DNA from: a virus
Lineage: Duplodnaviria > Heunggongvirae > Uroviricota > Caudoviricetes
Virus record (IMG/VR): IMGVR_UViG_3300035698_025354
Length of the DNA: 64,000 nucleotides
Strand: one strand, 5' to 3'
The position numbers were made by a program, and so were the translations under genes. The notes under the pieces were generated by a model. That model saw only the letters and a list, made by a program, of their open reading frames with translations. It was not told the origin of the DNA and made no database searches. This document shows positions 1 through 31,388 of this stretch, piece by piece (the stretch's first letter is position 1; every line of letters begins with the position of its first letter).

Positions 1-158
1 GCATCTATTACAGTAGACCAAGCAATAAAGATGAAAGAGATAAATTAGCGAAAGAACAACAAGAAGAAGTGCTAGCAAACCACACATACCATAATAGGTT
101 ATCGGTATTGTTTGATAGTTTAGATTTAAAAGATGACGCTGAATTTATGCTAGCATAA
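1..158 (+). CDS. 3' end of an upstream gene (partial), hypothetical protein
   Basis: Open frame from the window edge to TAA at 156-158. The minus-strand ORF 145..342 that overlaps it has implausible composition. Confidence 0.3.
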   Translation, partial: IYYSRPSNKDERDKLAKEQQEEVLANHTYHNRLSVLFDSLDLKDDAEFMLA

Positions 159-172
159 TTTGGGAATTATAA

Positions 173-820
173 ATGGCATTAGCTACTGATAAAATAGTTT
201 TTTTACATGTTCCAAAAACCGGTGGGATATGGATTAAAAATGCACTGAATTCTCTTGGTTTGAATCCTATTGAAATTGGGACACAGCATGATTCATTTCC
301 AGAATTATTTAATTCTGAGCCAAGAGAATTTTTTGAAAACAAATTGGTCTTTACTTTTATAAGGCACCCAGTCTTTTGGTATCAATCTAGATGGGCATTT
401 AGAATAAAACATGGATGGCAATCAAGACATCCATTAGATTTTAATTGTGCGTCTAATGATTTTCTTTTGTTTGTTGATAAAGCTTTGTCTTATAAACCAG
501 ATGGGTGGTGCTCTTGGTTATTTGAACGATATATTAGCAAAGATACTGGTCTTGTTGATAAAATAGGTAGAACAGAAAATCTCGTAGGGGATTTTATTGA
601 TATTATGCGTGAGGCTGGTCATGACGTGGATGAACAACAGGTTAGAGATTTTTCTTTTGTTAATTCATCGGATATGGATGGCTTTGGATCAAAATATTGG
701 GCTAAATATTCAGAAGAATTGTTAGATAGAGTGATGGTTGTTGAGGATTCTATAATAAGCCGATACTATCATGATTTTCCGATTGATCCCAAAACCCTTT
801 GTGGATCTCGAAATTATTGA
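173..820 (+). CDS. carbohydrate sulfotransferase-family protein
   Basis: N-terminal HVPKTGG resembles the 5'-PAPS-binding loop (PKTGGT-type). A downstream FIRHPVFWYQSRW resembles the 3'-phosphate-binding R-x-P...S motif of sulfotransferases. Size about 215 aa. Confidence 0.55.
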   Translation: MALATDKIVFLHVPKTGGIWIKNALNSLGLNPIEIGTQHDSFPELFNSEPREFFENKLVFTFIRHPVFWYQSRWAFRIKHGWQSRHPLDFNCASNDFLLFVDKALSYKPDGWCSWLFERYISKDTGLVDKIGRTENLVGDFIDIMREAGHDVDEQQVRDFSFVNSSDMDGFGSKYWAKYSEELLDRVMVVEDSIISRYYHDFPIDPKTLCGSRNY

Positions 821-1520
821 GGTTTTTAACTTTCCATTTATTATACCCAATTGTGCAATTGTTGTTTAGATGAACACATGACACATCTGTGGTAAATCCA
901 ATAAATTTTTTCAGTTTCAATGCTTGACTACAAATATACCCATCATCATGTCCAAATATGCAGTCTCCTGGGTATCCATTAATAGATTCAAAAAATTTTT
1001 TTGATATTAAAAACAAAGAGCCAGCAGTTTTTATGTTGTAATATATTCCCTGTTGAATTTGTTTTTTATACTTAAATCCATCATAGCCACCATGCATTGT
1101 TAAATTTTTATTCTTTAATTGTTCTTGGAATGTGTCTTTATGATTTTTTTGTAGCACTGGAGCTATGGCCCCGAATTGTTTGGTTTTATTTGCTGCAGAT
1201 ATTAATTTATATAACCATTTTGGTGGGACTAAAATATCGCAATCTAGCGATACTATATATGGTGATCTTTTGTTTTTCATTATAAGGTGGTACCATTTTT
1301 TAAATGATGCTCCTTTACCGATGTTTTCATTGTTTCTTATTATTTTAATATTATGTGCTTGATAATTATTTAATTCTTTATTAATTGAGCCACATGAATT
1401 GTCTATTATTGTTAAGTTATATGGAACGTGTGTGTTTTGTATTATTGAATCTATACATAATGTGAAATCTTGTGGTCTATGATATGATATTGCTATTATT
1501 TCAATTGGTTCATATAACAT
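750..1520 (-). CDS. glycosyltransferase family 2
   Basis: The N-terminal Rossmann-like segment IIAISYHRPQDFTLCIDSIIQNT...LTIIDNSCG and a DxD motif (LDCDILV) are typical of GT2. It overlaps the sulfotransferase gene end-to-end, convergently. Confidence 0.6.
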   Translation of the reverse strand: MLYEPIEIIAISYHRPQDFTLCIDSIIQNTHVPYNLTIIDNSCGSINKELNNYQAHNIKIIRNNENIGKGASFKKWYHLIMKNKRSPYIVSLDCDILVPPKWLYKLISAANKTKQFGAIAPVLQKNHKDTFQEQLKNKNLTMHGGYDGFKYKKQIQQGIYYNIKTAGSLFLISKKFFESINGYPGDCIFGHDDGYICSQALKLKKFIGFTTDVSCVHLNNNCTIGYNKWKVKNLNNFEIHKGFWDQSENHDSIGLL

Positions 1521-1604
1521 ATTTTTAGATACACAAAAGGCACAGGATGTGAATAATTCCTGTGCCTTTTTATATTAGTTTGTAAAAGTGATTAATTTTT
1601 TATT

Positions 1605-1802: not shown

Positions 1803-1831
1803 TTTAAATTTCTCCTATGTCGTATTTTTGA

Positions 1832-2719
1832 TTGGATAGAAAATTGCCTGATTTTTCTGTGGTCACATGTATTTCAAAACCCGATGTTTATGAATCATGC
1901 CTGTTAAGCTCAATAAATGCAACTAGAGGTAATTTTGATGTAGAAATTATCCCTCTTATAAATCATAATAATCTGTATTCGGCCAGTAATGCTCTTAATA
2001 TATGTTTAGATGCTGCAAATAGTGATATTGTGATTTTCGCTCACCAGGACGTGAAATTATTGCCAAGTTGGTTTGATATATTATCATCGACTGTCAATAA
2101 ATTGCCTGAAGATTGGGGAATTCTTGGATCTGCTGGGATTGATCTTCAATATAAAAGAGAGGATATTGGTAAATGGGGCGGTGCGAGAAATGTTAAAACC
2201 GTTGCTGTTGGAACAGTGTATGATAATGATCCAGAAATATCAGGTGACCCATATTGGGACGGTGCCAAAGAATTGACACAATCTCACTGTGCTGATGAAT
2301 GTTTATTTATATTGAATAAAAAAACTGGATTAAGGTTTGACGCACAATTCACTGGGTTTCACTTTTATGGTGTTGATATTTGTTTGCAAGCTAGATCTGC
2401 GGCATACTCAGTTTATTGCTCGCATTTACCAATAGTCCATTATGGTAAATATTCTGCCAGTTTTTCTGGTGATAAAAAGTATTGGGTATATCTTAGGTAT
2501 CTGCATAATAAGTGGAAATTAAGGTTTCCGGATATGCTTGGAACTCATATGCACTGGGGTAAAGATCCTGAAAGAGAAACGGATGAACTTACTAGTTATA
2601 TATCCTTACAATTGGAAGATAATAGTGGTTTGTCTGTTGGAATAAAGTCAATGGGTATTGAAAAAGCTAAATTGAGTGTTGATGAATCGAATAATTTTAT
2701 AGGCGGATATGATGCTTAA
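1832..2719 (+). CDS. glycosyltransferase-like protein (GT2-like fold)
   Basis: FSVVTCISKPDVYESCLLSSI...DIVIFAHQDVKLLPSW resembles the GT2 N-terminal nucleotide-sugar binding region and a DxD-like motif. The start codon is uncertain (TTG/GTG). Confidence 0.45.
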   Translation: MDRKLPDFSVVTCISKPDVYESCLLSSINATRGNFDVEIIPLINHNNLYSASNALNICLDAANSDIVIFAHQDVKLLPSWFDILSSTVNKLPEDWGILGSAGIDLQYKREDIGKWGGARNVKTVAVGTVYDNDPEISGDPYWDGAKELTQSHCADECLFILNKKTGLRFDAQFTGFHFYGVDICLQARSAAYSVYCSHLPIVHYGKYSASFSGDKKYWVYLRYLHNKWKLRFPDMLGTHMHWGKDPERETDELTSYISLQLEDNSGLSVGIKSMGIEKAKLSVDESNNFIGGYDA

Positions 2720-3530
2720 AGCTATAATGCTATGCCACCCATCTTCAAAAGAACTGATTTCTAAATCTGCTTTTAGATCTAAAAAAGTTGATTGTATTAG
2801 AATATCATGCGGTATGTCTAAAGTTAAAAATTGTGACTTTTCTGAATCAAATGATTTTTTCCCAACATATGCCCCATGGAATTCAGCTTTATTTGAAACA
2901 TCTGTTATCTTGACGGTATGGGAACACGCTGATCAACTGATTGGTGATAATAATGTTGCGATAATTCATTCGGATATTACACCAAATCATCAACCATCAA
3001 AATCTTGGGCTAAAATTGATAAGTGGTTAGATTCTAACCCAGACAAATCGGTTGGTTTAACTGTTCCAAATTCGTATATGGGTCTTTTCGATGATTGGAC
3101 TATACCTGATGATTTTCCTATAACAGTTAATAATGACCCAATGTTGTTGCATGCATTTGATAATAATCTACATGTTTGGGATTTTATTAAAGATTATGAT
3201 TATGATATTTGGGAATGGGCTATGGACTCTAATCCAAGAATGATATATTCACACCAATTTGCGTGCACAAGGAAAACTTTTGATTATCTTGGAAATAAAT
3301 TATACAACACAATCAGCAATCTTCGATTTAAAGATGTTGGATTTTGGACACCACATGTTTTTGAAAGGCTTATCAGTTTGTATTTAGCTAAATTGAGTGA
3401 GCCAATTCTATCAACTGCTTTTTGGCATTATTCTTCATCTGGGGTGCTTGGGCCAGGAGATCAATGCTTGTATGGCCCAAGGGCTTTAAAATATTATAAA
3501 ACATCTACTAGAGCAAATCAAAATTTCTAA
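2709..3530 (+). CDS. hypothetical protein, possible glycan-modification accessory enzyme
   Basis: 273 aa ORF that overlaps the upstream GT gene by a few codons (operon-like). No motif recognised. Confidence 0.4.
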   Translation: MMLKAIMLCHPSSKELISKSAFRSKKVDCIRISCGMSKVKNCDFSESNDFFPTYAPWNSALFETSVILTVWEHADQLIGDNNVAIIHSDITPNHQPSKSWAKIDKWLDSNPDKSVGLTVPNSYMGLFDDWTIPDDFPITVNNDPMLLHAFDNNLHVWDFIKDYDYDIWEWAMDSNPRMIYSHQFACTRKTFDYLGNKLYNTISNLRFKDVGFWTPHVFERLISLYLAKLSEPILSTAFWHYSSSGVLGPGDQCLYGPRALKYYKTSTRANQNF

Positions 3531-3804
3531 CCAATTCAAAAGCCTCGTTTACAAATTTGTTGATATCATCAGCACGAATATCACGTTCTAGCATTACTTT
3601 TGGTGGTGATTTAAGCAATCTGATCTTATTATCTTCTATTACTATATAAGCAATTATTTTATCTGAAAATTTGATTTCTAAAAAATAATTATAAAAATAA
3701 TAAGAATCTTTAGTGATTTTAAATTTCATTGGGAATGAAGTGCCACGTTGTTTATCTTCAATGATGCTTATGATTTGTTTTAAAATTTTTCTGTTGAGAT
3801 CCAT
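3508..3804 (-). CDS. hypothetical protein
   Basis: 98 aa ORF, first of a three-gene minus-strand block (3508-4648). Coding-like composition. Confidence 0.35.
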   Translation of the reverse strand: MDLNRKILKQIISIIEDKQRGTSFPMKFKITKDSYYFYNYFLEIKFSDKIIAYIVIEDNKIRLLKSPPKVMLERDIRADDINKFVNEAFELVRNFDLL

Positions 3805-3913
3805 TTTTATTTCCGGTTCTGTGGACGATTTTAAACAATTGTCTTTGCCTCTTTCGTCTGCTCTCCCGAATTGGTTGTTTTTAGTAATGTTTCGTATTAG
3901 AAATTGAATTAGT

Positions 3914-4210
3914 TTATCGAACCCGCTTGATCGTAAAACCCGTAATGTCGTCTAGTGCATTTATCACTTCCCCTTTCGGCAACATCGTAAGCTCTGCAGT
4001 TTCGCCGCTAACAGAAACCGCAGCACCATTCAGATCAACCCCATGTGGCAACCCGATAAAACGGAAAGGCAATTCGCAATTCCTGCAACGAATCGAAATG
4101 CTTGCAGTAAATCTCACAGGTGGTTCTTTTCCATCGTTTCCAAGCATTCTCCCGCATTCAACTGATACATCAAACTCTAAATGATTGCATTCAGATTGTT
4201 TTTTGTTCAT
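3914..4210 (-). CDS. Cys-rich putative zinc-binding protein
   Basis: 98 aa with cysteine pairs (SECNH...ECGR and CRNCE). Its GC content is visibly higher than its neighbours. Confidence 0.4.
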   Translation of the reverse strand: MNKKQSECNHLEFDVSVECGRMLGNDGKEPPVRFTASISIRCRNCELPFRFIGLPHGVDLNGAAVSVSGETAELTMLPKGEVINALDDITGFTIKRVR

Positions 4211-4255
4211 CTTTAATTTTTCCTTTCGATTTACAAAGCTCGTTTAGAATAAAAG

Positions 4256-4648
4256 TTATTTTCCACTTTTTGAAAAGTCATATATAAATCTTATCATTTT
4301 TTCTTTGCATTTTATTGTGAATTTGTCATCGTCTATTAATTTTCCCAATAATTGTGGGTAACCGGAATCACAAAGGTAGTAATACATTAAAAGTAGGGTT
4401 TCACCATCATCTGATATAATATACATGCTTTCCATGGAACTAGACCATTTAGCATGATTGTCCCATAAACTTTTGGCACGTTTAAATGGTCCTTTATTTC
4501 CAAATTCAAATTTTACATAACTTTCGAATTTATGCTTCGGAATTTCTACACAAACATGTGGTTTTGTGTTTGGCTCATTTGGTACTTGCTTAACATGTTG
4601 TGTGCTACTAAAATACGCAATAAATGGTTCGATTTTTGGTTCTTGCAT
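4256..4648 (-). CDS. hypothetical protein
   Basis: 130 aa ORF on the minus strand, diverging from the cupin gene at 4684. Confidence 0.4.
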   Translation of the reverse strand: MQEPKIEPFIAYFSSTQHVKQVPNEPNTKPHVCVEIPKHKFESYVKFEFGNKGPFKRAKSLWDNHAKWSSSMESMYIISDDGETLLLMYYYLCDSGYPQLLGKLIDDDKFTIKCKEKMIRFIYDFSKSGK

Positions 4649-4683
4649 ACTATTCCTTTTTCAATTAAAATACTGGTGGTAAT

Positions 4684-5019
4684 ATGGATTCAATTCGCCC
4701 TTGGGGTAAGTATTGCGATCATTTTAGGTCAAATCAAGTAGTATTTAAAATGATCTACGTTGATCCCGGTAAAAGATTATCCTTACAATCTCATGACTTT
4801 AGAGAAGAAGTTTGGATTTGCATAGACGGATGTGGTGTTGCAACAATCGATTCTGAGATAATTGAACTTGGTAAGAATGTTAGAGTTGATATTAATAAAA
4901 AGCAAATTCATAGGCTTGAAAATACTGGTAATGCAGTTCTCGTTATTGCTGAAACACAAATTGGGCTATGTTATGAGGATGATATTGTCAGGTATGAGGA
5001 TGATTTTGGAAGAAAATGA
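4684..5019 (+). CDS. cupin-domain protein, mannose-6-phosphate isomerase (type II C-terminal domain)-like
   Basis: A small double-stranded beta-helix signature: G..L.SHDF.EEVWI...G.G (metal-binding His/Glu pattern) and HRLEN, typical of PMI/GDP-mannose pathway cupins. 111 aa. Confidence 0.5.
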   Translation: MDSIRPWGKYCDHFRSNQVVFKMIYVDPGKRLSLQSHDFREEVWICIDGCGVATIDSEIIELGKNVRVDINKKQIHRLENTGNAVLVIAETQIGLCYEDDIVRYEDDFGRK

Positions 5020-5048
5020 CTATTATATAAAGATAAAGTGAATAAATT

Positions 5049-5258
5049 ATGCATTATGGTGTTCCGCAGCTTGGCAGATGTTATAAGACCAAACGAGTGA
5101 AAATTATGACTATGTATGCAGATACCTTTGCAGAAGAAAAATTTTTGACCATATTAGAAGAAGGTTTTAGAGAAGGAAATATCGAACATTTTTCTTTGAA
5201 AATGAATGATGGTCGTGAAATATTTTTCACATTCCCAGATAAAGAGGAAGAAGTTTGA
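5049..5258 (+). CDS. hypothetical small protein
   Basis: 69 aa ORF, first of four tightly packed small genes. The true start may be an internal Met. Confidence 0.3.
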   Translation: MHYGVPQLGRCYKTKRVKIMTMYADTFAEEKFLTILEEGFREGNIEHFSLKMNDGREIFFTFPDKEEEV

Positions 5259-5707
5259 TTATAAATATAGAAGATATCTTAAAAGACCAGGTACCTGAGA
5301 TCGAAACGATAATTCGATATCAACGATCAGACGCAGGTCAGGGTCATTATCCTTCACAGAGCAGCAGAGATCGTACATACATGGCTATGCGGTACGATGC
5401 TTTTACTGAGAAAATTTTTTCTGTTTATTATTATGATACGAGCAGCAATTGCAAAACTTTCTTTTTAGATATTATGCAAAATATCGATCTGACTATCGTT
5501 GTGACATCGATTAGTGCTACAGAATCTGAAACATTCGAATATGATTTAAATAATCAAAAGGATTTTATTAAATTAGTTGATGATGTTAAGAATTTCTTAA
5601 CATCATCAACTATAAGACAAAAAGCAATACGAGGGGTACTTTCGCATAGTGATGTTTCTAGAAGTAAACGATTAGCGGAGGCATGGGCTTCTCGTAAAGG
5701 GAATTAA
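5255..5707 (+). CDS. hypothetical protein (paralog of 5926..6282)
   Basis: The N-terminus IINIEDILKDQVPEIE and the internal YDLNNQKDFIKLVDDVKNF match IIDILKDQIPEISE and YDMNNQKDLLELIHNIK of the downstream gene. Confidence 0.45.
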   Translation: MIINIEDILKDQVPEIETIIRYQRSDAGQGHYPSQSSRDRTYMAMRYDAFTEKIFSVYYYDTSSNCKTFFLDIMQNIDLTIVVTSISATESETFEYDLNNQKDFIKLVDDVKNFLTSSTIRQKAIRGVLSHSDVSRSKRLAEAWASRKGN

Positions 5708-5725
5708 CTAAGAAAGAAACAAAAA

Positions 5726-5923
5726 ATGGATAATTTTGGTGCTAAGGTGTACAGAATGTCCGATGGTAAGGTTGTTGTAAAACAAACAAAACAAAATAAA
5801 AATAGGTATACTGTTTGCCTACGCAATGATTTTACACATATACAAAGAGTGATTGTAAAGTCTGATGATCAAGCTAAATGCATTGGCGAGGCTATTTTAG
5901 ATGCATTTGATGGAAAAATCTAA
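5726..5923 (+). CDS. hypothetical small protein
   Basis: 65 aa ORF sitting between the two paralogs. Confidence 0.35.
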   Translation: MDNFGAKVYRMSDGKVVVKQTKQNKNRYTVCLRNDFTHIQRVIVKSDDQAKCIGEAILDAFDGKI

Positions 5924-5925
5924 TT

Positions 5926-6282
5926 ATGAATATAATTGATATATTAAAAGATCAAATACCTGAAATTAGCGAAGTGATACATTTTGGCTCTGTTCGAACA
6001 GAGCAAAGTATTAGTGTCACTTCTACTATGTATTATACTGAAGATTCTGAAACCTTGCGATCCATCCCCAATCGTAATAAAAGTGTTGAGTTATTAGATA
6101 TCACACAAAATGGTGACATTATAACATATTCAGGTAAATATATAAATAATGAAAGAAGATATGATATGAATAATCAGAAAGATTTGCTTGAATTAATACA
6201 CAATATAAAGCTGGAAATTAAAGCTAATTTAAATTCATGGCGAGCAGCCATAAATTTGGCTAAATTCATGGCTGGAAATTAA
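5926..6282 (+). CDS. hypothetical protein (paralog of 5255..5707)
   Basis: Shared N-terminal and internal motifs with 5255..5707. Its 3' end lies inside a 45 bp tandem duplication. Confidence 0.45.
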   Translation: MNIIDILKDQIPEISEVIHFGSVRTEQSISVTSTMYYTEDSETLRSIPNRNKSVELLDITQNGDIITYSGKYINNERRYDMNNQKDLLELIHNIKLEIKANLNSWRAAINLAKFMAGN

Positions 6283-6321
6283 AGCTAATTTAAATTCATG
6301 GTAAGCAGCCATAAATAAGCG
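6228..6321 (+). repeat. two direct copies of a ~45 bp unit (ctggaaattaaagctaatttaaattcatgg[c/t][g/a]agcagccataaat) separated by a short spacer, spanning the stop codon of 5926..6282
   Basis: Read directly: copy 1 at about 6228-6272, copy 2 at about 6277-6321, differing at two positions. Confidence 0.6.
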
Positions 6322-6610
6322 ATAAAAAAGCCGCTTCTATTGCCTCGTACCATCCTTCTTGTAAATCATCTATGCTTTTTAATCCGTGATTTATGTCTGC
6401 CGGTATAAATATTTGTATAATCCCTTGTGATAATTTTAATATTGCTGGATCTATTCGTACATCAGTGCCAAATTCGCCTTTTATATCCCTACCTTTTTTA
6501 CGTTTTATCACTGCGTAAATATAACAATCAAATTCGGTTACTTGCGGTGGAATTGCTTGCAAGAATGGTGATGTGATTCTTCTTGTTAGAATTATGTCTT
6601 TGTTTTCCAT
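6296..6610 (-). CDS. hypothetical protein (~104 aa)
   Basis: ATG at 6608-6610 (MENKDIIL...). The ORF-track TTG start at 6697 would add an implausible N-terminus. A weak resemblance to tunnel-fold/QueF-like TEF..C segments was not trusted. Confidence 0.35.
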   Translation of the reverse strand: MENKDIILTRRITSPFLQAIPPQVTEFDCYIYAVIKRKKGRDIKGEFGTDVRIDPAILKLSQGIIQIFIPADINHGLKSIDDLQEGWYEAIEAAFLSLIYGCLP

Positions 6611-6628
6611 GATGTTATTTACGGGGTG

Positions 6629-6973
6629 ATGATTGTGACAACAATTACTGATGTTAATAGTGAACTTGCTGAAAGTGCTTTGAATATTCAAAATCAAATT
6701 AATAAATTGAACAAAGAGCTTGATGCTAAAAAAGAAGAGCTACGGACAATCGCAAATGGCAATAAAATGGAAATTATTGTCCCAGAAATCGGAAAGGTTA
6801 CTGTTTCGTCTCCGCGTGATGGAAGTGAGAGAACTGTTATGGTCTTTAATGAGGAAAGACTAAAAGAATCCCCAGTTCTTCGTAAGAAACTTCTTGATAA
6901 AAATATTATTAAAGAAGAAATTAAGAAAGTTTCTCCAGCTAAAGCATCTGTTTCTATTAAACCAAATGTGTGA
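6629..6973 (+). CDS. hypothetical coiled-coil protein
   Basis: 114 aa, K/E-rich heptad-like sequence. ATG at 6629 with a weak GGGG upstream. It starts only about 18 bp from the divergent gene 6296..6610. Confidence 0.4.
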   Translation: MIVTTITDVNSELAESALNIQNQINKLNKELDAKKEELRTIANGNKMEIIVPEIGKVTVSSPRDGSERTVMVFNEERLKESPVLRKKLLDKNIIKEEIKKVSPAKASVSIKPNV

Positions 6974-7149
6974 ATATGTTGGGGGGAGTTATATGGCGGT
7001 ACTTCAATGTTATTGCCATCTAGCGTACCTCAGCCCATCCGGGAACTAGTTTAAGTTGTACAACCGATTTAAAAAGTAGTCCAGAGGGTTTTCCTACCGG
7101 GAAGAAAGTCGCGGGTGCAAATCCTAGCCGCTGGCCCCCCAACATTTTA

Positions 7150-7210
7150 AATAACAAAAGCCAGTTGTTGGTATTGTCTGACAATTGGCTTTTGTTATTA
7201 ACAGTTAATA
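7150..7210. terminator. bidirectional rho-independent terminator hairpin
   Basis: Near-perfect 18 bp inverted repeat aataacaaaagccaGttg / caaTtggcttttgttatt with a 14 nt loop. U-rich 3' flanks in both orientations. Confidence 0.5.
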
Positions 7211-7212
7211 TT

Positions 7213-7241
7213 TTGTTTGTAACATATTCGGGTAGTATTAA
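7213..7241 (+). promoter_or_regulatory. candidate sigma70-like promoter for the ligase gene
   Basis: TTGTTT-N17-TATTAA, about 30 bp upstream of the ligase ATG at 7274. Pattern match only. Confidence 0.25.
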
Positions 7242-7273
7242 AAAGTAAAACTTTTGCAAATTGGGATTGAAAT

Positions 7274-9484
7274 ATGCGATCAATTGATGAAATTATTAAC
7301 GTTTTACGATCTACCAAAGATGGAATTTTTGATCTTGAATTGGAAGAAATCCAGCACTTAATCGATAAGGCTGATGCTACTTATCACAGAATCGGGTTAA
7401 CTTCTCCTATCTCGGATGAAGAATATGACCTGATTAGAAATCAGCTACGTAAAACCAATCCAGACGATGAAAGATTGTCTAGGATTGGTCCGAAATATAG
7501 TATGATTGAATTGCGTAATAAAATCACTCACACTATTCCAATGGGGTCACTTGATAATACTGTCGATGGTATCCTTGGATATCATAAATGGTATACTGAT
7601 ACTTGCAAAGTAATCGGTGAAGACAATACTGATATTTTTGTGTCGTTAAAAGTGGATGGTGGTAGTATCAGAGCTAGATATGAAAATGGGTTTTTAGTTG
7701 TCATTGCTACACGTGGTAATGGTGAAGTTGGTGAAGATATTACGGCAAATGGTATTAATTTCCGTGGCATTCCGACTAAATTGTCTGAACCAATTACATG
7801 CGATATTCGAGGTGAAGCTGTTTTACCTATTTCTGATTTTAAGGAAATTGTTGAAAGAGAATTTGGTAAGTCTTTTGAAGACATTCCAATCAAAGAAATC
7901 AGTAATCCAAGAAATATTGGTAACGGCATCTTTTCAAGAGATAGCGGGCAGGATTCAAACAGAATCAGTTTTTTGGCGTTTAATATTGTTTGTGACGATG
8001 TAGATTATAATTCCGAATTTGAAAAGATGAAACATCTTAAAGATTTAGGTCTTGAGACTGTTCCTCATCGTGTTGTTTCTGATGAAAAGGGGCTAACTGA
8101 ATTTTATAATGATATTGCTTCAAAAAGAGATGAGCTATCATTTGAAATCGATGGTCTTGTTACTGTTGTTGATAATGTTAATCATCAAAAGAAATTTTTA
8201 ACTGATGATATCAGATCTCATTTGCGTCCAAAACATTCTAGGGCTATTAAATTTCCGCATAAATCATCTATTACTACTTTAGAAGATGCTACAATTTCGG
8301 TTGGTCACACTGGGTCTATTATTCCAACTGCTAATCTTAAAGAAGTTAGGATCGGTGGTGTAAATGTCACGCATGCCCTGCTTAATAATTGGGATGAAAT
8401 CGGCAGGCTTGATGTTTCTATTGGCGATACTGTGGAAGTGATTCTGGCTGGTGATATTATACCAAAAATCATTAGATGCGTTGAACGTTCTCCAAATAGA
8501 AAAGAAATCTTAGAGCCAACAGAATGCCCATCTTGCGGTAAACCAACAAGCCGCGAATTACGCGGTAACCATGGTGCTGTTACTTATTGTTCTGATCCAC
8601 TTAATTGCCCAACTGTTCTTCGTGAGAAAATCGATCATTGGATTGGTAGTTCTAAAAAAGGTGTTGGGATCATGGATATTGGTGAAAACATATTAGCTGC
8701 TTTATGGGATAACAACCTTGTATCAGATCCGGCTGATTTATACACTTTAACTGTAGATGATTTAAAAGATCTTACGCTTGAAAGTGGTGTCCGTGTTGGC
8801 TCTTCACGAGCTGTTAAAATTGTTGAAAATATTGCCAGTAAGAAGAACCTATCATTACCGATGTTTCTTGGATCAATTGGGATTGATCTTTTAGGAAGAA
8901 GAAGAGTGAAAATCCTGCGGGATGCTGCTGATAGTAAACTTGATTCTCTTGATGATTGGTTAGATACGGAAAAATTTGGTGAATTAAAAATTAAGGGATT
9001 AGGTAAGTCTATAAAACAATCTGTGATCCGTGGCATTGAAACCAATCGTAAGCTAATTGAAAAATTTATCGCGAATGGTGTCACTATTGACTATCCAACC
9101 GCTACAACCATTATCACTGAAAAGCCATTTGATGGCATTAATTTTTGTCTTACTGGATCAAGAGAGTGCTCTGATGATATTACACGTCTTGGTGGAGAAT
9201 TAAAAAGTTCTATTTCTAAGAAGGTAAATTATCTTGTGCAAAAAGACGCACTAAGCACTACTAATAAGACAAAGAAAGCTGATGAATATGGTATCAGGGT
9301 GATTTCGTTCGATTTTTTAAAGCAAGTTATTGCTGGTGAAGAATCTTTGGATGGTGTTATCTGTAATGCTGGCTCTGGTGCGAGTGCGGTCAAAGAAGAA
9401 AATACAATATTGAATAAGACAAAGACAAAGACAAATTCTGACGTTGCAGATAATGCGGATAGGTTGGTGAATGAGTTGTTCTGA
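7274..9484 (+). CDS. ligA: NAD+-dependent DNA ligase (LigA-type)
   Basis: 736 aa. Adenylation motif K-V-D-G (SLKVDGGSIRARYENG). Cys4 zinc finger (CPSCGKP...C..C). HhH region. C-terminal BRCT-like segment (INFCLTGSRECSDD...LGGEL...VNYLV). Confidence 0.85.
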   Translation: MRSIDEIINVLRSTKDGIFDLELEEIQHLIDKADATYHRIGLTSPISDEEYDLIRNQLRKTNPDDERLSRIGPKYSMIELRNKITHTIPMGSLDNTVDGILGYHKWYTDTCKVIGEDNTDIFVSLKVDGGSIRARYENGFLVVIATRGNGEVGEDITANGINFRGIPTKLSEPITCDIRGEAVLPISDFKEIVEREFGKSFEDIPIKEISNPRNIGNGIFSRDSGQDSNRISFLAFNIVCDDVDYNSEFEKMKHLKDLGLETVPHRVVSDEKGLTEFYNDIASKRDELSFEIDGLVTVVDNVNHQKKFLTDDIRSHLRPKHSRAIKFPHKSSITTLEDATISVGHTGSIIPTANLKEVRIGGVNVTHALLNNWDEIGRLDVSIGDTVEVILAGDIIPKIIRCVERSPNRKEILEPTECPSCGKPTSRELRGNHGAVTYCSDPLNCPTVLREKIDHWIGSSKKGVGIMDIGENILAALWDNNLVSDPADLYTLTVDDLKDLTLESGVRVGSSRAVKIVENIASKKNLSLPMFLGSIGIDLLGRRRVKILRDAADSKLDSLDDWLDTEKFGELKIKGLGKSIKQSVIRGIETNRKLIEKFIANGVTIDYPTATTIITEKPFDGINFCLTGSRECSDDITRLGGELKSSISKKVNYLVQKDALSTTNKTKKADEYGIRVISFDFLKQVIAGEESLDGVICNAGSGASAVKEENTILNKTKTKTNSDVADNADRLVNELF

Positions 9485-10166
9485 TGTAGATCAGGGACGT
9501 AAATTTCCTGTTAGAATTCAGTTGTCAATACCTAACGGATACTTTTATAATTTTACGGCACTGGATGTTCCATTTGTTGTAGATCCTATAATTGATTCTA
9601 CTATCATATTTAATTTTAAAGAAGATTTGGTGTATATCTCTAAAATTAAATCAGTTATATGCTATATGCTAAATCATTGTGTTTTAGTGAATACAATACC
9701 TTTTAACTGTCATCCAGATCAGATAAAGTTGTTTATTTCCGCTTTTAAAGATTTATATGAAATAAGTGATATTTGTGAAAGTGAATCTCCTATTGCAAAT
9801 AAGTTTGTGTCGATCTTTGAGAAACTTGCTTATATTTCTGTTGATAGCACTACTTATATTGAAGTAGATTATAAACAGGTTAAGAAAATTGGTGAATATT
9901 GTAGATCAATTCTCATTGGTCAATTTTTTAAAGGAAGACCAAAAAGTGGGTCTGAATTTGATGATTGTTTTAGGAACTATAATACAGCTGTTGAAAAATT
10001 GCATAATATTATAATAAATAAAAAGCATGACAATATGATATGTCTTCATGATGTTTTGTGTGAGTGGGAAACTTATATTAATCAAAATAATGCTATATCT
10101 TGGGATGCTGATATGTCCGATTATTTGGATGCTAAAGATATAGTTTTTCAAAAATCTGCTATTTGA
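9471..10166 (+). CDS. hypothetical protein
   Basis: 231 aa ORF overlapping the ligase stop. Coding-like. No recognised motif. Confidence 0.45.
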   Translation: MSCSDVDQGRKFPVRIQLSIPNGYFYNFTALDVPFVVDPIIDSTIIFNFKEDLVYISKIKSVICYMLNHCVLVNTIPFNCHPDQIKLFISAFKDLYEISDICESESPIANKFVSIFEKLAYISVDSTTYIEVDYKQVKKIGEYCRSILIGQFFKGRPKSGSEFDDCFRNYNTAVEKLHNIIINKKHDNMICLHDVLCEWETYINQNNAISWDADMSDYLDAKDIVFQKSAI

Positions 10167-10501
10167 TAATCAGGTTAGAATATCAAATTAACCTATTATT
10201 CACATTTTGTAATAATCCTTTTGAGGGATTAGTTTTATCCCTGGATATTCGCAAATTAATGTAAAGGGGTAAGATTAATGCAAAGTGATGATCAGAAGTC
10301 AGATATGGAATTCACAATCGAAACCGGAACAAGATCGTAGCCGTGCGATGGAGCGTATATTGACCAACACGATGATGAACATTGGTGGTGGGTAGTTAAA
10401 TTTGACAGCTTGGAATCTTTAATGCAATTCGTCGCCAAGTATAAAAGTTGTACTGTTAGTAGATTCGGAACAATAAACTATATTAAAATTGGGGGAGACC
10501 T

Positions 10502-11176
10502 ATGAATAAAGAACAAAGCCAGTCAGAAGAAATTGAAGAGCATGAGAGTTTTGGTCTGATTAGTGCCACAAGGGTTACTGGTGGTAGGGATGTTTTGTTT
10601 GGATCGTCTATTAAACATGATAATGTGATTGCATTAGAAATTAAGCGTGCTTGCAGAAGACGTGATTTGTACCGTAACTGGTATTGTGGTAAAGAAACCT
10701 TGGTGAGAATTGAAATGAGTCATTCTCAATTCGCCGATTTTATCACGTCCTTAAATCAGGGCGATGGTGTTCCGTGTACTTTAAGGCGGTTAGATAATAA
10801 ACCAGTTGAAGAATGTCCTGTTATTGATGAGCGGCTTAAATTTGAAACTGAATTTAAACAGAAAATAAATTCAATTTCTTCAGATGCATCTAAATTAGTG
10901 GAAGATGCGTCACGAATTTTATCAGATAAGAGACCTCCTAAAAAAACTGATAGAAATCAGTTGATTGAGGATATGCGAATGTTGATGCAAGATATTAATA
11001 ATAATTTACCATTTGTTCAAAGTCAATTTAATGAGGCTATGGATAAAGTTGTAAAAGAGGCAAAGGGTGAAATTGAAGCGTATACGGCACAAAAACTTGG
11101 GTCTGGTAGTTTACCTGATAATTTACCTGATAATTTACCTGATAATTCACTTGATAATGTGAAATTTATTGAATAA
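10502..11176 (+). CDS. hypothetical protein with C-terminal LPDN pentapeptide repeats
   Basis: Strong RBS GGGGGAG 7 nt upstream of the ATG. The C-terminus LPDNLPDNLPDNSLDN is encoded by a 12-15 bp tandem DNA repeat at about 11113-11160. Confidence 0.5.
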   Translation: MNKEQSQSEEIEEHESFGLISATRVTGGRDVLFGSSIKHDNVIALEIKRACRRRDLYRNWYCGKETLVRIEMSHSQFADFITSLNQGDGVPCTLRRLDNKPVEECPVIDERLKFETEFKQKINSISSDASKLVEDASRILSDKRPPKKTDRNQLIEDMRMLMQDINNNLPFVQSQFNEAMDKVVKEAKGEIEAYTAQKLGSGSLPDNLPDNLPDNSLDNVKFIE

Positions 11177-11271
11177 TGTTTGTAGCTTCATAAGTTATTC
11201 TTATATTTTTAATATGCTTTTGTAGTGTATTGAAAAAGTATATAGAATTTTGTGGATTATTTGGAGCTAAT

Positions 11272-12237
11272 ATGACAAATCAAAAAAGAGCACTTATTAT
11301 AGGTTGTACTGGTCAGGATGGATCATATCTTTGCGAATTCTTGTTGTCAAAGGGATATGAAGTCCATGGTGTTGTTAGAAGATCCAGTATTTCAAATACT
11401 GATCGTATTGACCATATTTTAGATTTTTTAACAATACACCAGTCTGATATTACCGACCAAGGTTCATTGAGAAGACTGATAGATAATGTTAAACCGGATG
11501 AGGTCTATAATTTAGCTGCACAATCATTTGTTAAGGCTAGTTTTGATCATCCTGTTTCTACTGGTGATATGACGGCTCTTGGTGTTGCTAGAATTCTTGA
11601 AGCTATTCGCGATTCTAATAAATATATCAAATTTTACCAAGCTTCCTCTAGTGAGATGTTTGGTAAGGTTCAGGAAACGCCGCAGGTTGAGACTACTCCC
11701 TTTTATCCTAGAAGTCCGTATGGTGCTGCTAAATTATATGGTCATTTTATGACTGTTAATTATCGCGAGAGTTATGATATGTTTTGTGTTTCTGGTATAT
11801 TATTTAATCATGAAAGCCCAAGACGTGGTATTGAATTTGTTACTAGGAAGATCTCTAATGCTGTTGCTAGGATCAAACTTGGTAAACAGGATAAGTTATT
11901 TCTTGGTAATCTTGATGCAAAGCGTGATTGGGGACATGCTAGGGATTATGTTGAGGCTATGTGGTTGATGCTTCAACAGAGTGTACCAGATGATTATGTT
12001 ATTTCTACTGGTAAGACATACTCTGTTAGGGATTTTGTTAGGTCTGCGTTTGAACATGTTGGTCTTGATTATAATAATTATGTGGAGATTGATCCTAAGT
12101 TTTATAGGCCGTCAGAGGTTAATTTGTTATTGGGTGATTCTACTAAGGCTAAAGAAAAGCTTGGGTGGGTTCCTAAGATTGATTTTAAACAGTTGGTTGC
12201 TGAAATGGTTGATGATGATATTATTAAAGAGTCTTAA
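11272..12237 (+). CDS. gmd: GDP-mannose 4,6-dehydratase
   Basis: N-terminus [33 protein letters not shown] (Rossmann GxxGxxG). Catalytic YxxxK (YGAAKLY). NHESPRRG motif. About 320 aa, typical Gmd length. GGAG 8 nt upstream of the ATG at 11272. Confidence 0.85.
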
Positions 12238-12359
12238 TCTCCATGAAAGTTTGTTTATTATGCATAATAGTGCAAACATATTAACAAACCAAGAACCCAC
12301 CTGTTTTATCAAAAATAATGTAGTTACAGGAATTACCTAATTACTGAAGGAGATTACTT

Positions 12360-12764
12360 ATGGCACAACCTGCCAACACTGACATTAAGGTCTATCGTAG
12401 ATTAAGAGCATACCGGCAGGCTCATCGTCATGAGTCGATCGCTGCTCTTATCAAACGACTCCGTCCACTTGCTATGAGCATCCCAGCGGATGAAATCCTC
12501 ACTGAGGTTAAAACGCGGGATACCACTACTGCTGACTTCAGTTCGTATATGGGTGAAGCTCGTCACAATGCAACTCGCGGCTTTCCGATTGTTATTGGGC
12601 TGAAAGATCAAGTGTCTTTCTCTGCAGCTCAAACAAATTTGACAGCTATTGATTTTGCATTCCAGATTGGACATGACAAGTTCTTGGCTAATACAACCTC
12701 TGGGTTGGCTACTCAAGATCTGCATGCTGATGCTCGTGCTCTGACACCTGACCTCGACATGTAA
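12360..12764 (+). CDS. hypothetical small protein (134 aa) with atypical, high-GC, optimal-codon-like usage
   Basis: Strong SD GAAGGAGAT 7 nt upstream. Codons biased to GCT/CGT/ACT/CTG, unlike its neighbours. Followed immediately by a strong terminator. Confidence 0.55.
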   Translation: MAQPANTDIKVYRRLRAYRQAHRHESIAALIKRLRPLAMSIPADEILTEVKTRDTTTADFSSYMGEARHNATRGFPIVIGLKDQVSFSAAQTNLTAIDFAFQIGHDKFLANTTSGLATQDLHADARALTPDLDM

Positions 12765-12772
12765 GAAAATTG

Positions 12773-12815
12773 GGGCGGTTATGGCTTGTAATCATAACCG
12801 CCCCATCTGTATATA
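12773..12815 (+). terminator. rho-independent terminator
   Basis: Perfect 12 bp stem ggggcggttatg / cataaccgcccc with a 9 nt loop, then a U-rich tail. Confidence 0.55.
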
Positions 12816-13426: not shown

Positions 13427-14134
13427 ATGGCGATAATTGGACCAGATGACGTTCCGAGTATTCTCAAAGTTAATAGTGAGCCGATGAAAAAGTATGTCCT
13501 AACTAAGTTAGGGCATCCAAATGTCGAAGTGGAAATCACTGAAGATCAGTGGGAAACGCTGTGGAGGGTTGCTGGTGATTTTATTTCTGCATATTTTCCA
13601 CGTGAACAAAAGCTTGGTTTGTTTTGGACTACTCCATTGCAATCAACATATCCACTACCAGAAGATGCGTATTGGATTCAAGAAGTTTCATGGGACCCAG
13701 TCACTACTAGAATTGATGATGTATTTGGTGCAGAAAGTTTCCTATTTTGTTTTTCGCCGGAATTGCGAATATTAGATAAATTTGGTAAATTACAATATCT
13801 TGACGATTGGAAGAGGACATGGAAAGCTAAGACTCCATATGGTGATAGCACTATGTTGATTCAGAAGCATGATAATTTTAGGGCGTTACCTAAAATCAAA
13901 ATAGAATATTCTGGTGGAATGATTGAAGCTACTTCAAATCATATTATTAAATCTAATGAAAAGTGGAGAGAATTATCTGAAATAAATATTGGTGATAAAT
14001 TGTCTGGTGTCAAAAATATGTTGGATGTTCAAAATATTTCAAGATCTGAAAGCACAGATGCTATATCATTAAGAGCTAATAATTCGGGGTGTTATTACGG
14101 ATGCATAAAAGGAAAGCCAATTTTGATCCATTAA
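13427..14134 (+). CDS. hypothetical protein (possible neck/structural protein) with a Hint-like C-terminal tail
   Basis: 235 aa. The last ~80 aa (IEATSNHIIKSNEKWRELSEINIGDKLSG) resemble intein/Hint blocks. The 3' end overlaps the next ORF by 46 bp in another frame. Confidence 0.35.
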   Translation: MAIIGPDDVPSILKVNSEPMKKYVLTKLGHPNVEVEITEDQWETLWRVAGDFISAYFPREQKLGLFWTTPLQSTYPLPEDAYWIQEVSWDPVTTRIDDVFGAESFLFCFSPELRILDKFGKLQYLDDWKRTWKAKTPYGDSTMLIQKHDNFRALPKIKIEYSGGMIEATSNHIIKSNEKWRELSEINIGDKLSGVKNMLDVQNISRSESTDAISLRANNSGCYYGCIKGKPILIH

Positions 14135-15099
14135 AATTTACTCCATCAACCATACATAATAAAATTTATATAAATATAGACGATTTAAAAGAATACTTTA
14201 AAGAGCATACTTTAAAAGAATGCTCTCTTAAATATAAATGCTCTCCTGTTACTATAAAAAGAAAACTTAGATCTGTTGATGTAGATACATCAATACATAA
14301 TCATAGTAAATTATCTGCTAAAAAATCAGCAGAAGCTTCTATAAATGGTAAAAATAAGCCAACCGAAGAAGAACTATATTCCTTATTAGTGGAAAAGAAT
14401 CTTGATTCTAAAACTATAGCAGAAATGTATGGTCTACATTATAATACTATTAGAAGTATGGCACGTAAGCAAGGTATAAAGAAAAGCCATGCTGATATTG
14501 CTAAATCTATGCAAAATAGGCATATGTTAAAGCATGGTGTGATGCATCCAGCACAAAGACCAGATGTGATAGCTAAAACATCTATTAGTTTGAATAAGGT
14601 AAAATATAATAATATTTGTTTTAAATCTTTAACTGAATTTGGATATGCGTTATTATTAAATAAAATGAACAAAGAATGGTATTATGAGGAAATGCGTATC
14701 CCATATGTTGATATGATGACTGGAAAAAGAAGAATATATGTTATTGATTTTACGGTTGTTAGTGATGAGAAAATAGAGTGGATTGAAATTAAACCAAATA
14801 ATAAAATGATACCAGAAGACAAAAGAATATATGCTGAAAGAAGGGCCGAAGAAGCTAATGTTGAGTATAGGGGGATTGATCTTGAAGAGAGGGAAGACTT
14901 GTGGAAATTAATTGTTGATGGATATGATTTTGATAATGTCGAATTTCTTCATAGAACCCCAAGATCTACTAGTTCAAAAATAACGTACTACTTTAAAAAC
15001 CAAAATGACGCGGTTGATTATAAATTAGATGGATGGCGTCAATTTACAAAACCAACAAATGAAGGTGCATTATGGAAAAAGATATTGGTAAGAAAATAA
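14101..15099 (+). CDS. free-standing homing-endonuclease-like protein (tandem HTH DNA-binding modules + PD-(D/E)xK-like nuclease domain)
   Basis: HTH segments KECSLKYKCSPVTIKRKL and TIAEMYGLHYNTIRSMARKQGI resemble NUMOD1/Seg-like modules. The C-terminal YVIDF...EWIEIKP fits a D...E.K nuclease motif. It is inserted among structural genes. Confidence 0.45.
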   Translation: MHKRKANFDPLKFTPSTIHNKIYINIDDLKEYFKEHTLKECSLKYKCSPVTIKRKLRSVDVDTSIHNHSKLSAKKSAEASINGKNKPTEEELYSLLVEKNLDSKTIAEMYGLHYNTIRSMARKQGIKKSHADIAKSMQNRHMLKHGVMHPAQRPDVIAKTSISLNKVKYNNICFKSLTEFGYALLLNKMNKEWYYEEMRIPYVDMMTGKRRIYVIDFTVVSDEKIEWIEIKPNNKMIPEDKRIYAERRAEEANVEYRGIDLEEREDLWKLIVDGYDFDNVEFLHRTPRSTSSKITYYFKNQNDAVDYKLDGWRQFTKPTNEGALWKKILVRK

Positions 15100-29583: not shown

Positions 29584-29585
29584 TT

Positions 29586-30782: not shown

Positions 30783-30910
30783 AACTTTTCTTAAAATCCC
30801 TTTGAATTTTGTGTCTCCAACATCACCATCAACTAAGTATTGTCCAGATGGGAGATCATTGCCAAGTTTGCATGTTACAATTCCAACTGATCCTGGCTGT
30901 TACCCGGACG

Positions 30911-31348: not shown

Positions 31349-31388
31349 AGAGATTCAATTTGTTGACAGGGTAATTGCTATTACCCCG

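What the first reader, a model, noticed from the sequence alone, without database searches (positions are those of the whole stretch)
4684..12237. GDP-mannose pathway genes (PMI-type cupin and Gmd) flank a block of small unknown genes and the DNA ligase
A PMI-like cupin (4684-5019) and a bona fide GDP-mannose 4,6-dehydratase (11272-12237) imply the phage makes GDP-4-keto-6-deoxymannose, the precursor of GDP-fucose, GDP-rhamnose and perosamine. No reductase or epimerase partner is visible in the window. The downstream step is either host-supplied or encoded elsewhere.
Basis: partly seen in the sequence, partly recalled or inferred. Interest (0 to 1): 0.5.

Follow-up and report, generated by a model that had tools for sequence, protein, structure and literature searches.

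The report
Phage GDP-mannose dehydratase with sugar-transferase genes
An uncultured T4-like phage carries an intact GDP-mannose dehydratase and a small mannose-phosphate-isomerase-type protein beside several sugar-transferase genes, which is a familiar kind of viral sugar toolkit whose only unusual trait is that this whole phage lineage lacks the usual partner enzyme next to the dehydratase.

Summary
Both genes are real and sit at the stated coordinates. ORF 11272-12237 is a full-length GDP-mannose 4,6-dehydratase (TIGR01472 478.6 bits, cutoff 415) with all cofactor and catalytic motifs kept. ORF 4684-5019 is a stand-alone type II phosphomannose-isomerase cupin (PF01050 81.4 bits). It is 42% identical to the AlgA isomerase domain and keeps every family-invariant residue.

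No second SDR, aminotransferase or RmlC-type enzyme lies in the 64 kb window or the 10 kb upstream.

- **Glycosyltransferase block.** It lies at window 1-3530 and extends 2.8 kb upstream. It holds five GT-like genes plus a sulfotransferase-like gene.
- **Gmd is core-like, the cupin is not.** Gmd is syntenic in all six related phage loci, always without a nearby partner SDR (0/7, against 55/76 other viral Gmd loci). The cupin occurs only in this genome, inside a variable slot.
- **The intervening genes mean little.** In relative L018, Gmd lies 0.9 kb from the transferase block with no ligase between.

Phage Gmd and phage PMI cupins are already described, so this is a new member of a known kind. 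The fate of the 4-keto product is unresolved: host enzyme, unseen genome, or intrinsic reductase activity.

The parts
1..158 (+). 3' end of a 315 aa GT1-like glycosyltransferase gene (PF13524 Glyco_trans_1_2). It is preceded, outside the window, by a 662 aa GT2 + Glyco_transf_7C protein.
   Evidence: L003 9039-9986 and 7010-8998. L003 is 100% identical to window 1-10820, offset 9828.
173..820 (+). 215 aa sulfotransferase-like protein with an HVPKTGG motif. It is conserved in clade loci L016, L017 and L018.
   Evidence: phrog_3347 'Galactose-3-O-sulfotransferase', E 9e-6. No Pfam or NCBIfam hit. Cluster c127.
750..1520 (-). 256 aa family 2 glycosyltransferase.
   Evidence: PF00535, 46.1 bits, E 6.7e-12.
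1859..2719 (+). 286 aa GT2_5-type glycosyltransferase (the ORF is open from 1832). It is conserved in L016, L017, L018 and L087.
   Evidence: PF13712, 44 bits. Gene call. Cluster c68, 41-63% identity.
2712..3530 (+). 272 aa conserved protein with no Pfam family. The predicted fold is GT-A, so it is a probable glycosyltransferase. It always sits next to the GT2_5 gene.
   Evidence: More than 120 homolog clusters at 53-75% identity, none named. AF2 pLDDT 90, pTM 0.89. Foldseek PDB hits are WbbM 6u4b (E 1e-5), GT6 enzymes and WrtF fucosyltransferase.
3531..6295 (.). Variable slot relative to relative L017, where the 272 aa gene abuts the c72 gene. It holds three small minus-strand ORFs, the cupin, and small + strand ORFs. 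Two of those are paralogs (5255-5707 and 5926-6282).
   Evidence: Synteny maps. Paralogy: 33% identity, E 6e-12.
4684..5019 (+). Stand-alone type II phosphomannose-isomerase cupin, 111 aa.
   Evidence: PF01050, 81.4 bits. 42% identical to AlgA 362-468 with the catalytic motif kept. All 26 invariant family columns kept. AF2 pLDDT 93.9 with a cupin fold.
7274..9484 (+). NAD-dependent DNA ligase. It lies between the two genes but is not part of the sugar system.
   Evidence: NF005932, 380.5 bits, above the cutoff of 369. It is absent between Gmd and the transferase block in L018.
11272..12237 (+). GDP-mannose 4,6-dehydratase, short bacterial type, 321 aa.
   Evidence: TIGR01472, 478.6 bits, above the cutoff of 415. 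Full-length alignment to solved Gmds 1n7g, 1rpn and 7kf3. Motif positions.
12360..12764 (+). 134 aa protein of unknown function. It lies next to Gmd in all 7 clade loci: immediately downstream and co-oriented in six, on the opposite strand upstream of Gmd in the rearranged L018. A 14 bp hairpin follows it at 12771-12805.
   Evidence: Cluster c48, 64-84% identity. Hairpin -25 kcal/mol, z -5.3. No Pfam or PHROG hit.

Best explanation
The window comes from an uncultured, distant T4-like myovirus whose lineage includes jumbo phages.

Gmd is a vertically inherited, core-like gene of this lineage. [quoted passage not shown] That product feeds a phage-encoded glycan-building set of five GT-like proteins plus a sulfotransferase-like protein, which adds a 6-deoxyhexose-containing glycan to a phage or host surface target late in infection.

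The 4-keto reduction or epimerisation step is not encoded near Gmd in any member of the lineage. It is therefore done by a host enzyme (Fcl or Rmd type), by a gene in the unseen part of the genome, or by Gmd itself.

The cupin is an accessory, genome-specific gene. It most likely interconverts fructose-6-P and mannose-6-P and so raises precursor supply, as proposed for the same stand-alone cupin in cyanophages.

What is shown: gene identities, intact motifs, synteny, and absence of a nearby partner. What is inferred: enzyme activities, the link between Gmd and the transferases, and the target of the glycan.
For: Identity of the phage:
- The window carries T4-type portal, gp23 capsid, sheath-region, gp19, gp25 and baseplate genes.
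- The best capsid match is 38.7% identity, to a 595 kb uncultured phage.

Gmd is intact:
- It scores above the equivalog cutoff and keeps all motifs.

Gmd is core-like in the lineage:
- The closest homologs (67-74%) lie in related phage contigs with the same order: ligase, Gmd, 134 aa gene, neck genes, sheath.
- Gmd identity within the clade is 66-74%. That equals sheath, gp15 and gp13 (69-85%) and exceeds the ligase (52-60%).

Link to the transferases:
- The 272 aa GT-A-like gene and Gmd recur on contigs of the same length: 408349, 343852, 136952, 109164, 65449, 59986, 42100, 28019 and 13151 bp.
- In L018, Gmd lies 0.9 kb from the transferase block.
- L013 and L015 carry a different GT2 plus a methyltransferase upstream.

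No nearby partner:
- 0 of 7 clade loci have a second SDR, against 55 of 76 other viral Gmd loci with an Fcl-type gene within 3 kb (Fisher p = 2.9e-4).

The cupin is tied to this pathway in other viruses:
- It directly abuts gmd or fcl in L042, L044, L050, L068 and L086.
- It sits in the MPI, Gmd, Fcl, GME and GT island of cyanophage S-SCSM1 (PMC9602691).
Against: - No activity has been measured for any of these proteins.
- More than half of the genome is probably unseen. Only about 74 kb was examined, while relatives' contigs reach 137-408 kb, so a partner enzyme elsewhere cannot be excluded.
- Gmd and the transferase block are 7.7 kb apart here, separated by replication genes, so co-regulation is not shown. 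Promoter and terminator scans were at chance level.
- The cupin is absent from all six relatives. Bacterial stand-alone cupins show no consistent sugar context.
- E. coli ManC carries the same domain although E. coli relies on ManA for PMI activity (my own knowledge), so the domain does not guarantee isomerase activity.
- The acceptor of the glycan is unknown.
Confidence: 0.55

Rival explanations
1. Gmd is bifunctional. After dehydration it also reduces the 4-keto group with NADPH and so makes GDP-D-rhamnose by itself. The lineage would then need no partner enzyme.
For: - PBCV-1 GMD does exactly this in vitro and in infected cells (PMC5408694, read).
- Lineage-wide absence of any second SDR next to a strongly conserved Gmd is what this model predicts.
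- The protein is the short bacterial type, like P. aeruginosa Gmd (1rpn, 398 bits).
Against: - Bifunctionality is not readable from sequence. The ATCV-1 GMD, 53% identical to PBCV-1 GMD, lacks it.
- No distinguishing residues were identified here.
- The unseen part of the genome or the host could supply the reductase.
Confidence: 0.15
2. Gmd acts as a metabolic sink or takeover tool. It drains host GDP-mannose, shutting down or altering host mannose-containing surface polysaccharide, and no finished phage-specific sugar is needed.
For: - No downstream enzyme is found in any of the 7 clade loci.
- Cell-envelope remodelling is the usual proposal for cyanophage LPS-type genes (PMC9602691).
Against: - A sink does not explain the conserved co-occurrence with several phage glycosyltransferases.
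- Sister phages carry gmd together with fcl, which points to a finished product being wanted.
Confidence: 0.1
3. The cupin is not a phosphomannose isomerase. Instead it acts on the Gmd product as a 3- or 3,5-epimerase or a ketoisomerase, like the cupin domain of CapF or RmlC/FdtA-type cupins. That would make it the missing downstream step.
For: - In five viral loci the cupin directly abuts gmd or fcl.
- The predicted structure superposes on the CapF cupin domain (TM 0.82-0.83, 20% identity).
- No stand-alone PF01050 cupin of this type was found characterised in the searchable literature.
Against: - It is 42% identical to the AlgA isomerase domain, and every residue implicated in PMI catalysis or metal binding is kept (PMC9602691).
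- Where it abuts gmd, an Fcl that already epimerises is present.
- It is absent from the six partnerless relatives.
- The cupin fold match is generic, with 407 PDB hits at E <= 0.001. The highest TM-scores (0.85-0.89) are to stand-alone archaeal proteins deposited as phosphomannose isomerases (7zvy, 7zvm).
Confidence: 0.08
4. The partner enzyme (fcl, rmd, per or similar) is simply encoded elsewhere in the phage genome, outside the 74 kb examined. The pathway would then be conventional.
For: - Relatives' contigs reach 137-408 kb, so most of the genome is unseen.
- Sugar genes in large phages can be scattered. S-SCSM2R, for example, has its cupin far from its glycosyltransferases.
Against: - In 55 of 76 other viral loci the partner is within 3 kb of gmd.
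- A scan of IMG/VR with the sister-clade Fcl returned 44 loci. None is on the four IMG/VR contigs of this clade, including the 137 kb one. This is a weak negative because the scan is word-limited.
Confidence: 0.3

Closest known systems
Cyanophage S-SCSM1 sugar island: MPI cupin, wcaG RNA, Gmd, GDP-L-fucose synthase, GDP-mannose 3,5-epimerase and glycosyltransferases (PMC9602691)
   Same: - Both have a stand-alone roughly 113 aa type II PMI cupin (39% identical), a Gmd (57% identical) and several glycosyltransferases in a T4-like myovirus.
- The authors propose the same role for the cupin in feeding mannose metabolism.
   Different: - There is no Fcl, GME or wcaG RNA here.
- The cupin and Gmd lie 6.3 kb apart, with replication genes between them.
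- This Gmd is closer to those of its own phage lineage and of bacteria (up to 76%) than to any cyanophage Gmd (61% or less), so it was acquired independently.
Chlorovirus PBCV-1 GMD and GMER (PMC5408694)
   Same: The virus encodes its own Gmd to make 6-deoxyhexose donors for glycans built by virus-encoded glycosyltransferases.
   Different: - PBCV-1 also encodes the epimerase/reductase, and its GMD is proven to be bifunctional.
- Its host is eukaryotic.
- Its capsid glycan is chemically characterised, whereas nothing is known here.
Bacterial bifunctional type II PMI-GMP enzymes (P. aeruginosa AlgA, PslB, WbpW)
   Same: The cupin aligns to AlgA 362-468 at 42% identity and keeps the RPWG, S-x-Q-x-H-x-x-R-x-E and HRLEN motifs.
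   Different: It lacks the roughly 350 aa N-terminal guanylyltransferase domain, so it cannot make GDP-mannose.
Sister jumbo phages in IMG/VR (L019, L035, L049, L052; the contigs of L019, L049 and L052 are 269-388 kb, that of L035 is 37 kb)
   Same: - Their portal and the 979 aa head-region protein are homologous to the window's in all four, and the capsid protein in L019, L049 and L052.
- Their Gmd is 62-64% identical.
- In both groups Gmd is embedded in or beside virion gene modules.
   Different: - There, gmd is immediately followed by fcl.
- There, the pair sits between the portal-side genes and the major capsid gene.
Bacterial gmd-fcl-(gmm)-manC-manB clusters of colanic acid and O-antigen loci (own knowledge)
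   Same: The enzymology of the first committed step is the same, and the gene is associated with glycosyltransferases.
   Different: No fcl, manC or manB is present, and the setting is a phage genome.

Membership tests
GDP-mannose 4,6-dehydratase (TIGR01472, EC 4.2.1.47) | Score above the curated equivalog cutoff over the full length | tested here: met
   478.6 bits against a cutoff of 415, covering model positions 1-339 of 342. PF16363 scores 460 bits.
GDP-mannose 4,6-dehydratase (TIGR01472, EC 4.2.1.47) | N-terminal NADP(H)-binding glycine motif and the Arg/Ser that bind the 2'-phosphate | tested here: met
   GCTGQDGSY at 11-19 and RRSS at 36-39. Both align with the same motifs in 1n7g and 1rpn.
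GDP-mannose 4,6-dehydratase (TIGR01472, EC 4.2.1.47) | Catalytic Ser/Thr, Glu, Tyr and Lys (E. coli T133, E135, Y157, K161) | tested here: met
   S126, E128, Y150 and K154. Ser instead of Thr also occurs in active Arabidopsis MUR1 (S162 in the 1n7g alignment).
GDP-mannose 4,6-dehydratase (TIGR01472, EC 4.2.1.47) | [quoted passage not shown] | not testable with these tools
   This needs an enzyme assay.
Type II phosphomannose isomerase cupin domain (PF01050) | Pfam score above the gathering threshold | tested here: met
   81.4 bits against 23.6.
Type II phosphomannose isomerase cupin domain (PF01050) | Shared PMI motif Ser-x-Gln-x-His plus the Arg needed for PMI catalysis in PslB, with Glu and a second His as metal ligands | tested here: met
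   S33, Q35, H37, R40, E42 and H76 align with AlgA S390, Q392, H394, R397, E399 and H433. All are invariant across 45 family members. The residue roles are taken from PMC9602691.
Type II phosphomannose isomerase cupin domain (PF01050) | Cupin (double-stranded beta-helix) fold | tested here: met
   AF2 pLDDT 93.9 with an all-beta structure. Foldseek returns cupins only, and the best TM-scores (0.85-0.89) are to 7zvy, deposited as a stand-alone phosphomannose isomerase.
Type II phosphomannose isomerase cupin domain (PF01050) | Fructose-6-P to mannose-6-P isomerase activity | not testable with these tools
   No characterised stand-alone bacterial or phage member was found in the searchable literature.
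Bifunctional PMI-GMP (TIGR01479) | N-terminal mannose-1-phosphate guanylyltransferase domain | tested here: not met
   Only model positions 359-466 of 467 are matched, at 79.6 bits against a cutoff of 373. The protein is only 111 aa long.
Complete GDP-fucose, GDP-rhamnose or GDP-perosamine pathway | A second enzyme acting on GDP-4-keto-6-deoxymannose (Fcl, Rmd, Per or ColD) encoded with gmd | tested here: not met
   None is present in the window, in the 10 kb upstream, or in six related loci. The rest of the genome was not available.
Complete de novo GDP-mannose supply | Phosphomannomutase (ManB) and guanylyltransferase (ManC) | tested here: not met
   No such Pfam family appears among the scanned window ORFs or in the precomputed upstream annotations.
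wcaG RNA motif (Rfam), which accompanies cyanophage sugar islands | A match at the Rfam gathering score | tested here: not met
   There were no Rfam matches anywhere in the window.

The most novel reading that the evidence does not exclude
A whole lineage of uncultured T4-like (partly jumbo) phages keeps a partnerless Gmd as a core gene at the edge of its virion gene module. It keeps a conserved set of its own glycosyltransferases, including an unclassified GT-A-like family, and a sulfotransferase-like protein. Under this reading Gmd alone makes the donor (GDP-D-rhamnose by intrinsic reduction, or the 4-keto sugar itself), and the phage decorates its own virion with a possibly sulfated deoxyhexose glycan. 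That would be a bacterial-virus counterpart of chlorovirus capsid glycosylation.
Probability: 0.12. Interest if true: 0.6.

Novelty: new member of a known kind. Interest (0 to 1): 0.3.

Why it matters
Virus-encoded nucleotide-sugar enzymes change what appears on virions or infected cells, and so affect host range, receptor masking and immune or defence recognition. This case adds little to the principle, because Gmd occurs in at least 596 IMG/VR loci and 261 GenBank phage records, and phage PMI cupins are already published.

It does define a testable unit for a poorly known phage lineage. That unit is a core-like Gmd with no nearby partner, plus a highly conserved GT-A-like family that no database classifies. 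An assay of this Gmd would show whether single-enzyme GDP-rhamnose synthesis, known from one chlorovirus, also exists in phages.

Tried and rejected
- **Finding the source genome.**
  - Megablast of 4000-12500 against GenBank phages found nothing.
  - An exact 50-mer was absent from IMG/VR.
  - The capsid protein is not on record under my ORF start.
  - I therefore could not read beyond the window, apart from 10 kb upstream via ENA contig k141_152613.
- **RNA motifs.** The Rfam scan for the wcaG RNA or any other motif found none.
- **Promoters and terminators.**
  - The sigma-70 and terminator scans were at chance level (75 against 65 expected, 6 against 6.2).
  - The T4 late-promoter word TATAAATA is enriched (17 against 9.3), but no copy lies just upstream of Gmd or the cupin. 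No transcription-unit claim is made.
- **Context of stand-alone cupins elsewhere (three loci, one per homolog: P0002 on a short contig of unknown origin, P0049 and P0018 bacterial).** It showed no sugar genes, so context could not settle the cupin's function.
- **Cupin against solved structures.** A sequence search found only marginal generic cupins.
- **Literature.** A search for a characterised monofunctional type II cupin PMI returned nothing.
- **A second cupin at 44870-45241 as a possible epimerase.** It matches only generic Cupin_1 and Cupin_2 models, has no PDB relative, and lies 33 kb away. It stays unassigned.
- **My first BLAST-only screen for partner SDRs.** It missed a divergent SDR in L031, so I repeated it with a profile and all filters off. 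The clade result was unchanged.
- **IMG/VR scan with the sister-clade Fcl.** No hit fell on clade contigs. This is a weak negative.

Full report
**1. What is there**

The window is AT-rich (31-43% GC) and encodes a T4-type virion and replication set.
- It has a gp20 portal, gp23 capsid, gp19 tube, gp25 and gpJ baseplate proteins, a tail sheath, terminase, a class II ribonucleotide reductase and an NAD-dependent ligase.
- It is far from any sequenced phage. Megablast finds nothing, and the capsid protein's best match is 38.7% identity, to a 595 kb uncultured phage.
- The same genome is present in public metagenome assemblies. ENA contig k141_152613 (71.5 kb) is 100% identical over the 10.8 kb compared.

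**2. The two genes of the finding**

ORF 11272-12237 is a GDP-mannose 4,6-dehydratase.
- It scores 478.6 bits on the TIGR01472 equivalog model, above the cutoff of 415.
- It aligns end to end with the solved enzymes of Arabidopsis, P. aeruginosa and others.
- It keeps GCTGQDGSY (11-19), RRSS (36-39), S126/E128, Y150/K154 and NHESPRRG (179-186).
- Ser in place of the usual Thr also occurs in Arabidopsis MUR1.
- The ATG at 11272 has a GGAG upstream and equals the database gene call.

ORF 4684-5019 belongs to the widespread family of stand-alone proteins that NCBI names 'phosphomannose isomerase type II C-terminal cupin domain'.
- Members are about 113 aa long. The search returned 728 homolog clusters, and the best non-identical ones are 42-60% identical.
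- PF01050 scores 81.4 bits.
- It is 42% identical to residues 362-468 of P. aeruginosa AlgA, which I recovered from a mis-labelled 'phage' record.
- The residues that PMC9602691 lists as important for PMI (Ser, Gln, His and the PslB Arg), plus the Glu and second His of the cupin metal site, are all present. They are invariant across 45 family members.
- The AF2 model is confident (pLDDT 93.9). Its best structural matches by TM-score are roughly 105-110 aa archaeal proteins deposited as phosphomannose isomerases.

**3. No partner enzyme nearby**

- tblastn with cyanophage Fcl, GDP-mannose 3,5-epimerase and RmlC found nothing in the window or in the 10 kb upstream.
- An SDR profile with all filters off, run on every ORF of 60 aa or more, found only Gmd. 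It did recover a divergent control SDR at 205 bits.
- Pfam scans of the remaining larger ORFs gave virion, replication and other non-sugar families and no oxidoreductase.
- ManB and ManC are also absent, so the phage depends on host GDP-mannose.

**4.

The window opens inside a glycan-building block.
- Upstream, outside the window, lies a 662 aa GT2 + GT7C protein. It is followed by a 315 aa GT1-like gene that ends at window position 158.
- Inside the window come a 215 aa sulfotransferase-like protein (phrog_3347), a GT2 gene on the minus strand, and a GT2_5 gene.
- The last gene of the block encodes a 272 aa protein with no Pfam family. Its family is strongly conserved, at 53-75% identity across more than 120 clusters, all unnamed. 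Its confident model (pLDDT 90) has a GT-A fold resembling WbbM, GT6 enzymes and WrtF fucosyltransferase.

**5. Comparative evidence**

The closest Gmd homologs (67-74%) are not bacterial. They lie in related phage contigs with the same gene order: ligase, Gmd, a 134 aa gene, neck genes and sheath. Seven loci form this clade: the window, L013, L015, L016, L017, L018 and L087.

Conservation of Gmd within the clade:
- Gmd is 66-74% identical. That is as conserved as sheath, gp15 and gp13, and more conserved than the ligase at 52-60%.
- It therefore behaves as a vertically inherited core-like gene, not a sporadic cargo gene.

Link to the transferases:
- Gmd hits and hits of the 272 aa family recur on contigs of identical length, up to 408 kb, so the lineage includes jumbo phages.
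- In L018, Gmd lies 0.9 kb from the transferase block with no ligase between. L013 and L015 carry a different GT2 plus a methyltransferase.

The partnerless state is lineage-wide:
- None of the seven loci has a second SDR within 8-10 kb. Among 76 other IMG/VR Gmd loci, 55 have an Fcl-type gene within 3 kb (Fisher p = 2.9e-4).
- A sister group (L019, L035, L049, L052; the contigs of L019, L049 and L052 are 269-388 kb) shares portal and head-region genes with the window. It carries gmd and fcl together, between the portal region and the capsid gene.

The cupin behaves differently:
- It is found only in this genome, inside a roughly 2.8 kb segment (3531-6295) that L017 lacks.
- Its link to the pathway is nevertheless real in other viruses. 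It directly abuts gmd or fcl in five IMG/VR loci, and it sits in the S-SCSM1 island.

**6. Mechanism**

Most likely, Gmd converts host GDP-mannose to GDP-4-keto-6-deoxymannose for the phage's own transferases. The cupin is an optional booster of mannose-6-P supply.

Who reduces the 4-keto group is open. The candidates are a host Fcl or Rmd, a gene in the unseen genome, or Gmd itself, as in PBCV-1 (PMC5408694).

In both sister groups Gmd sits beside virion genes. This hints at late expression and perhaps virion decoration, but that is inference only. Promoter scans were uninformative.

**7. Novelty**

Phage Gmd genes are common, with 261 GenBank phage records and at least 596 IMG/VR loci. Stand-alone MPI cupins in phages were described in 2022 (PMC9602691). 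The finding is therefore a new member of a known kind. The modestly new points are the lineage-wide partnerless, core-like Gmd and the unclassified GT-A-like family.

Noticed in passing
window 13427-15815: A 336 aa ORF with a TnsA-like endonuclease N-terminal domain and an HTH (14089-15099), plus a 235 aa ORF (13427-14134), sit just before the gp13-like neck gene (15072-15815). The same pair is present in L015 and L087 but absent in L013 and L016. This looks like a mobile (homing-type) endonuclease insertion polymorphism.
   Followed up: partly
window 12360-12805: The 134 aa gene next to Gmd is among the most conserved genes of the clade (64-84% identity). It has a strong GGAG site and is followed by a perfect 14 bp GC-rich hairpin (-25 kcal/mol, z -5.3). 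It has no family match and is probably a highly expressed late protein.
   Followed up: partly
window 44870-45241: A second small cupin (123 aa; Cupin_1 29 bits, Cupin_2 27.6 bits) lies directly after the baseplate J gene. It has no PDB sequence relative and its function is unknown.
   Followed up: partly
window 26728-27180: A 150 aa protein matches several PAS-domain models (E about 2e-6). That is unusual for a phage.
   Followed up: no
window 28721-32509 (minus strand): A WGR-domain protein (28721-29323) and two SPFH/Band 7 proteins (29586-30782 and 31490-32509) are encoded on the opposite strand in a GC-richer stretch (43% at 30-32 kb). This may be a separate acquired cassette.
   Followed up: no
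window 5255-5707 and 5926-6282: Two small neighbouring genes are paralogs (33% identity, E 6e-12). Both lie in the variable slot that also holds the cupin.
   Followed up: yes
L087 9920-10942: The Gmd of this 137 kb relative is split over two reading frames (35 bits and 291 bits to the SDR profile). This is either a frameshift, an assembly error or a pseudogene.
   Followed up: no
L052 838-1743, 9219-9983 and 9995-11946: Sister jumbo phages carry a subtilase and a weakly papain-like protein around a gmd-fcl pair, inside the head-gene region.
   Followed up: partly
L003 3278-4039 (about 6 kb upstream of the window): A 2OG-Fe(II) oxygenase-like protein, a DUF6065 protein and a PD-(D/E)XK nuclease lie upstream of the glycosyltransferase block. 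These annotations were precomputed and I did not re-test them.
   Followed up: no
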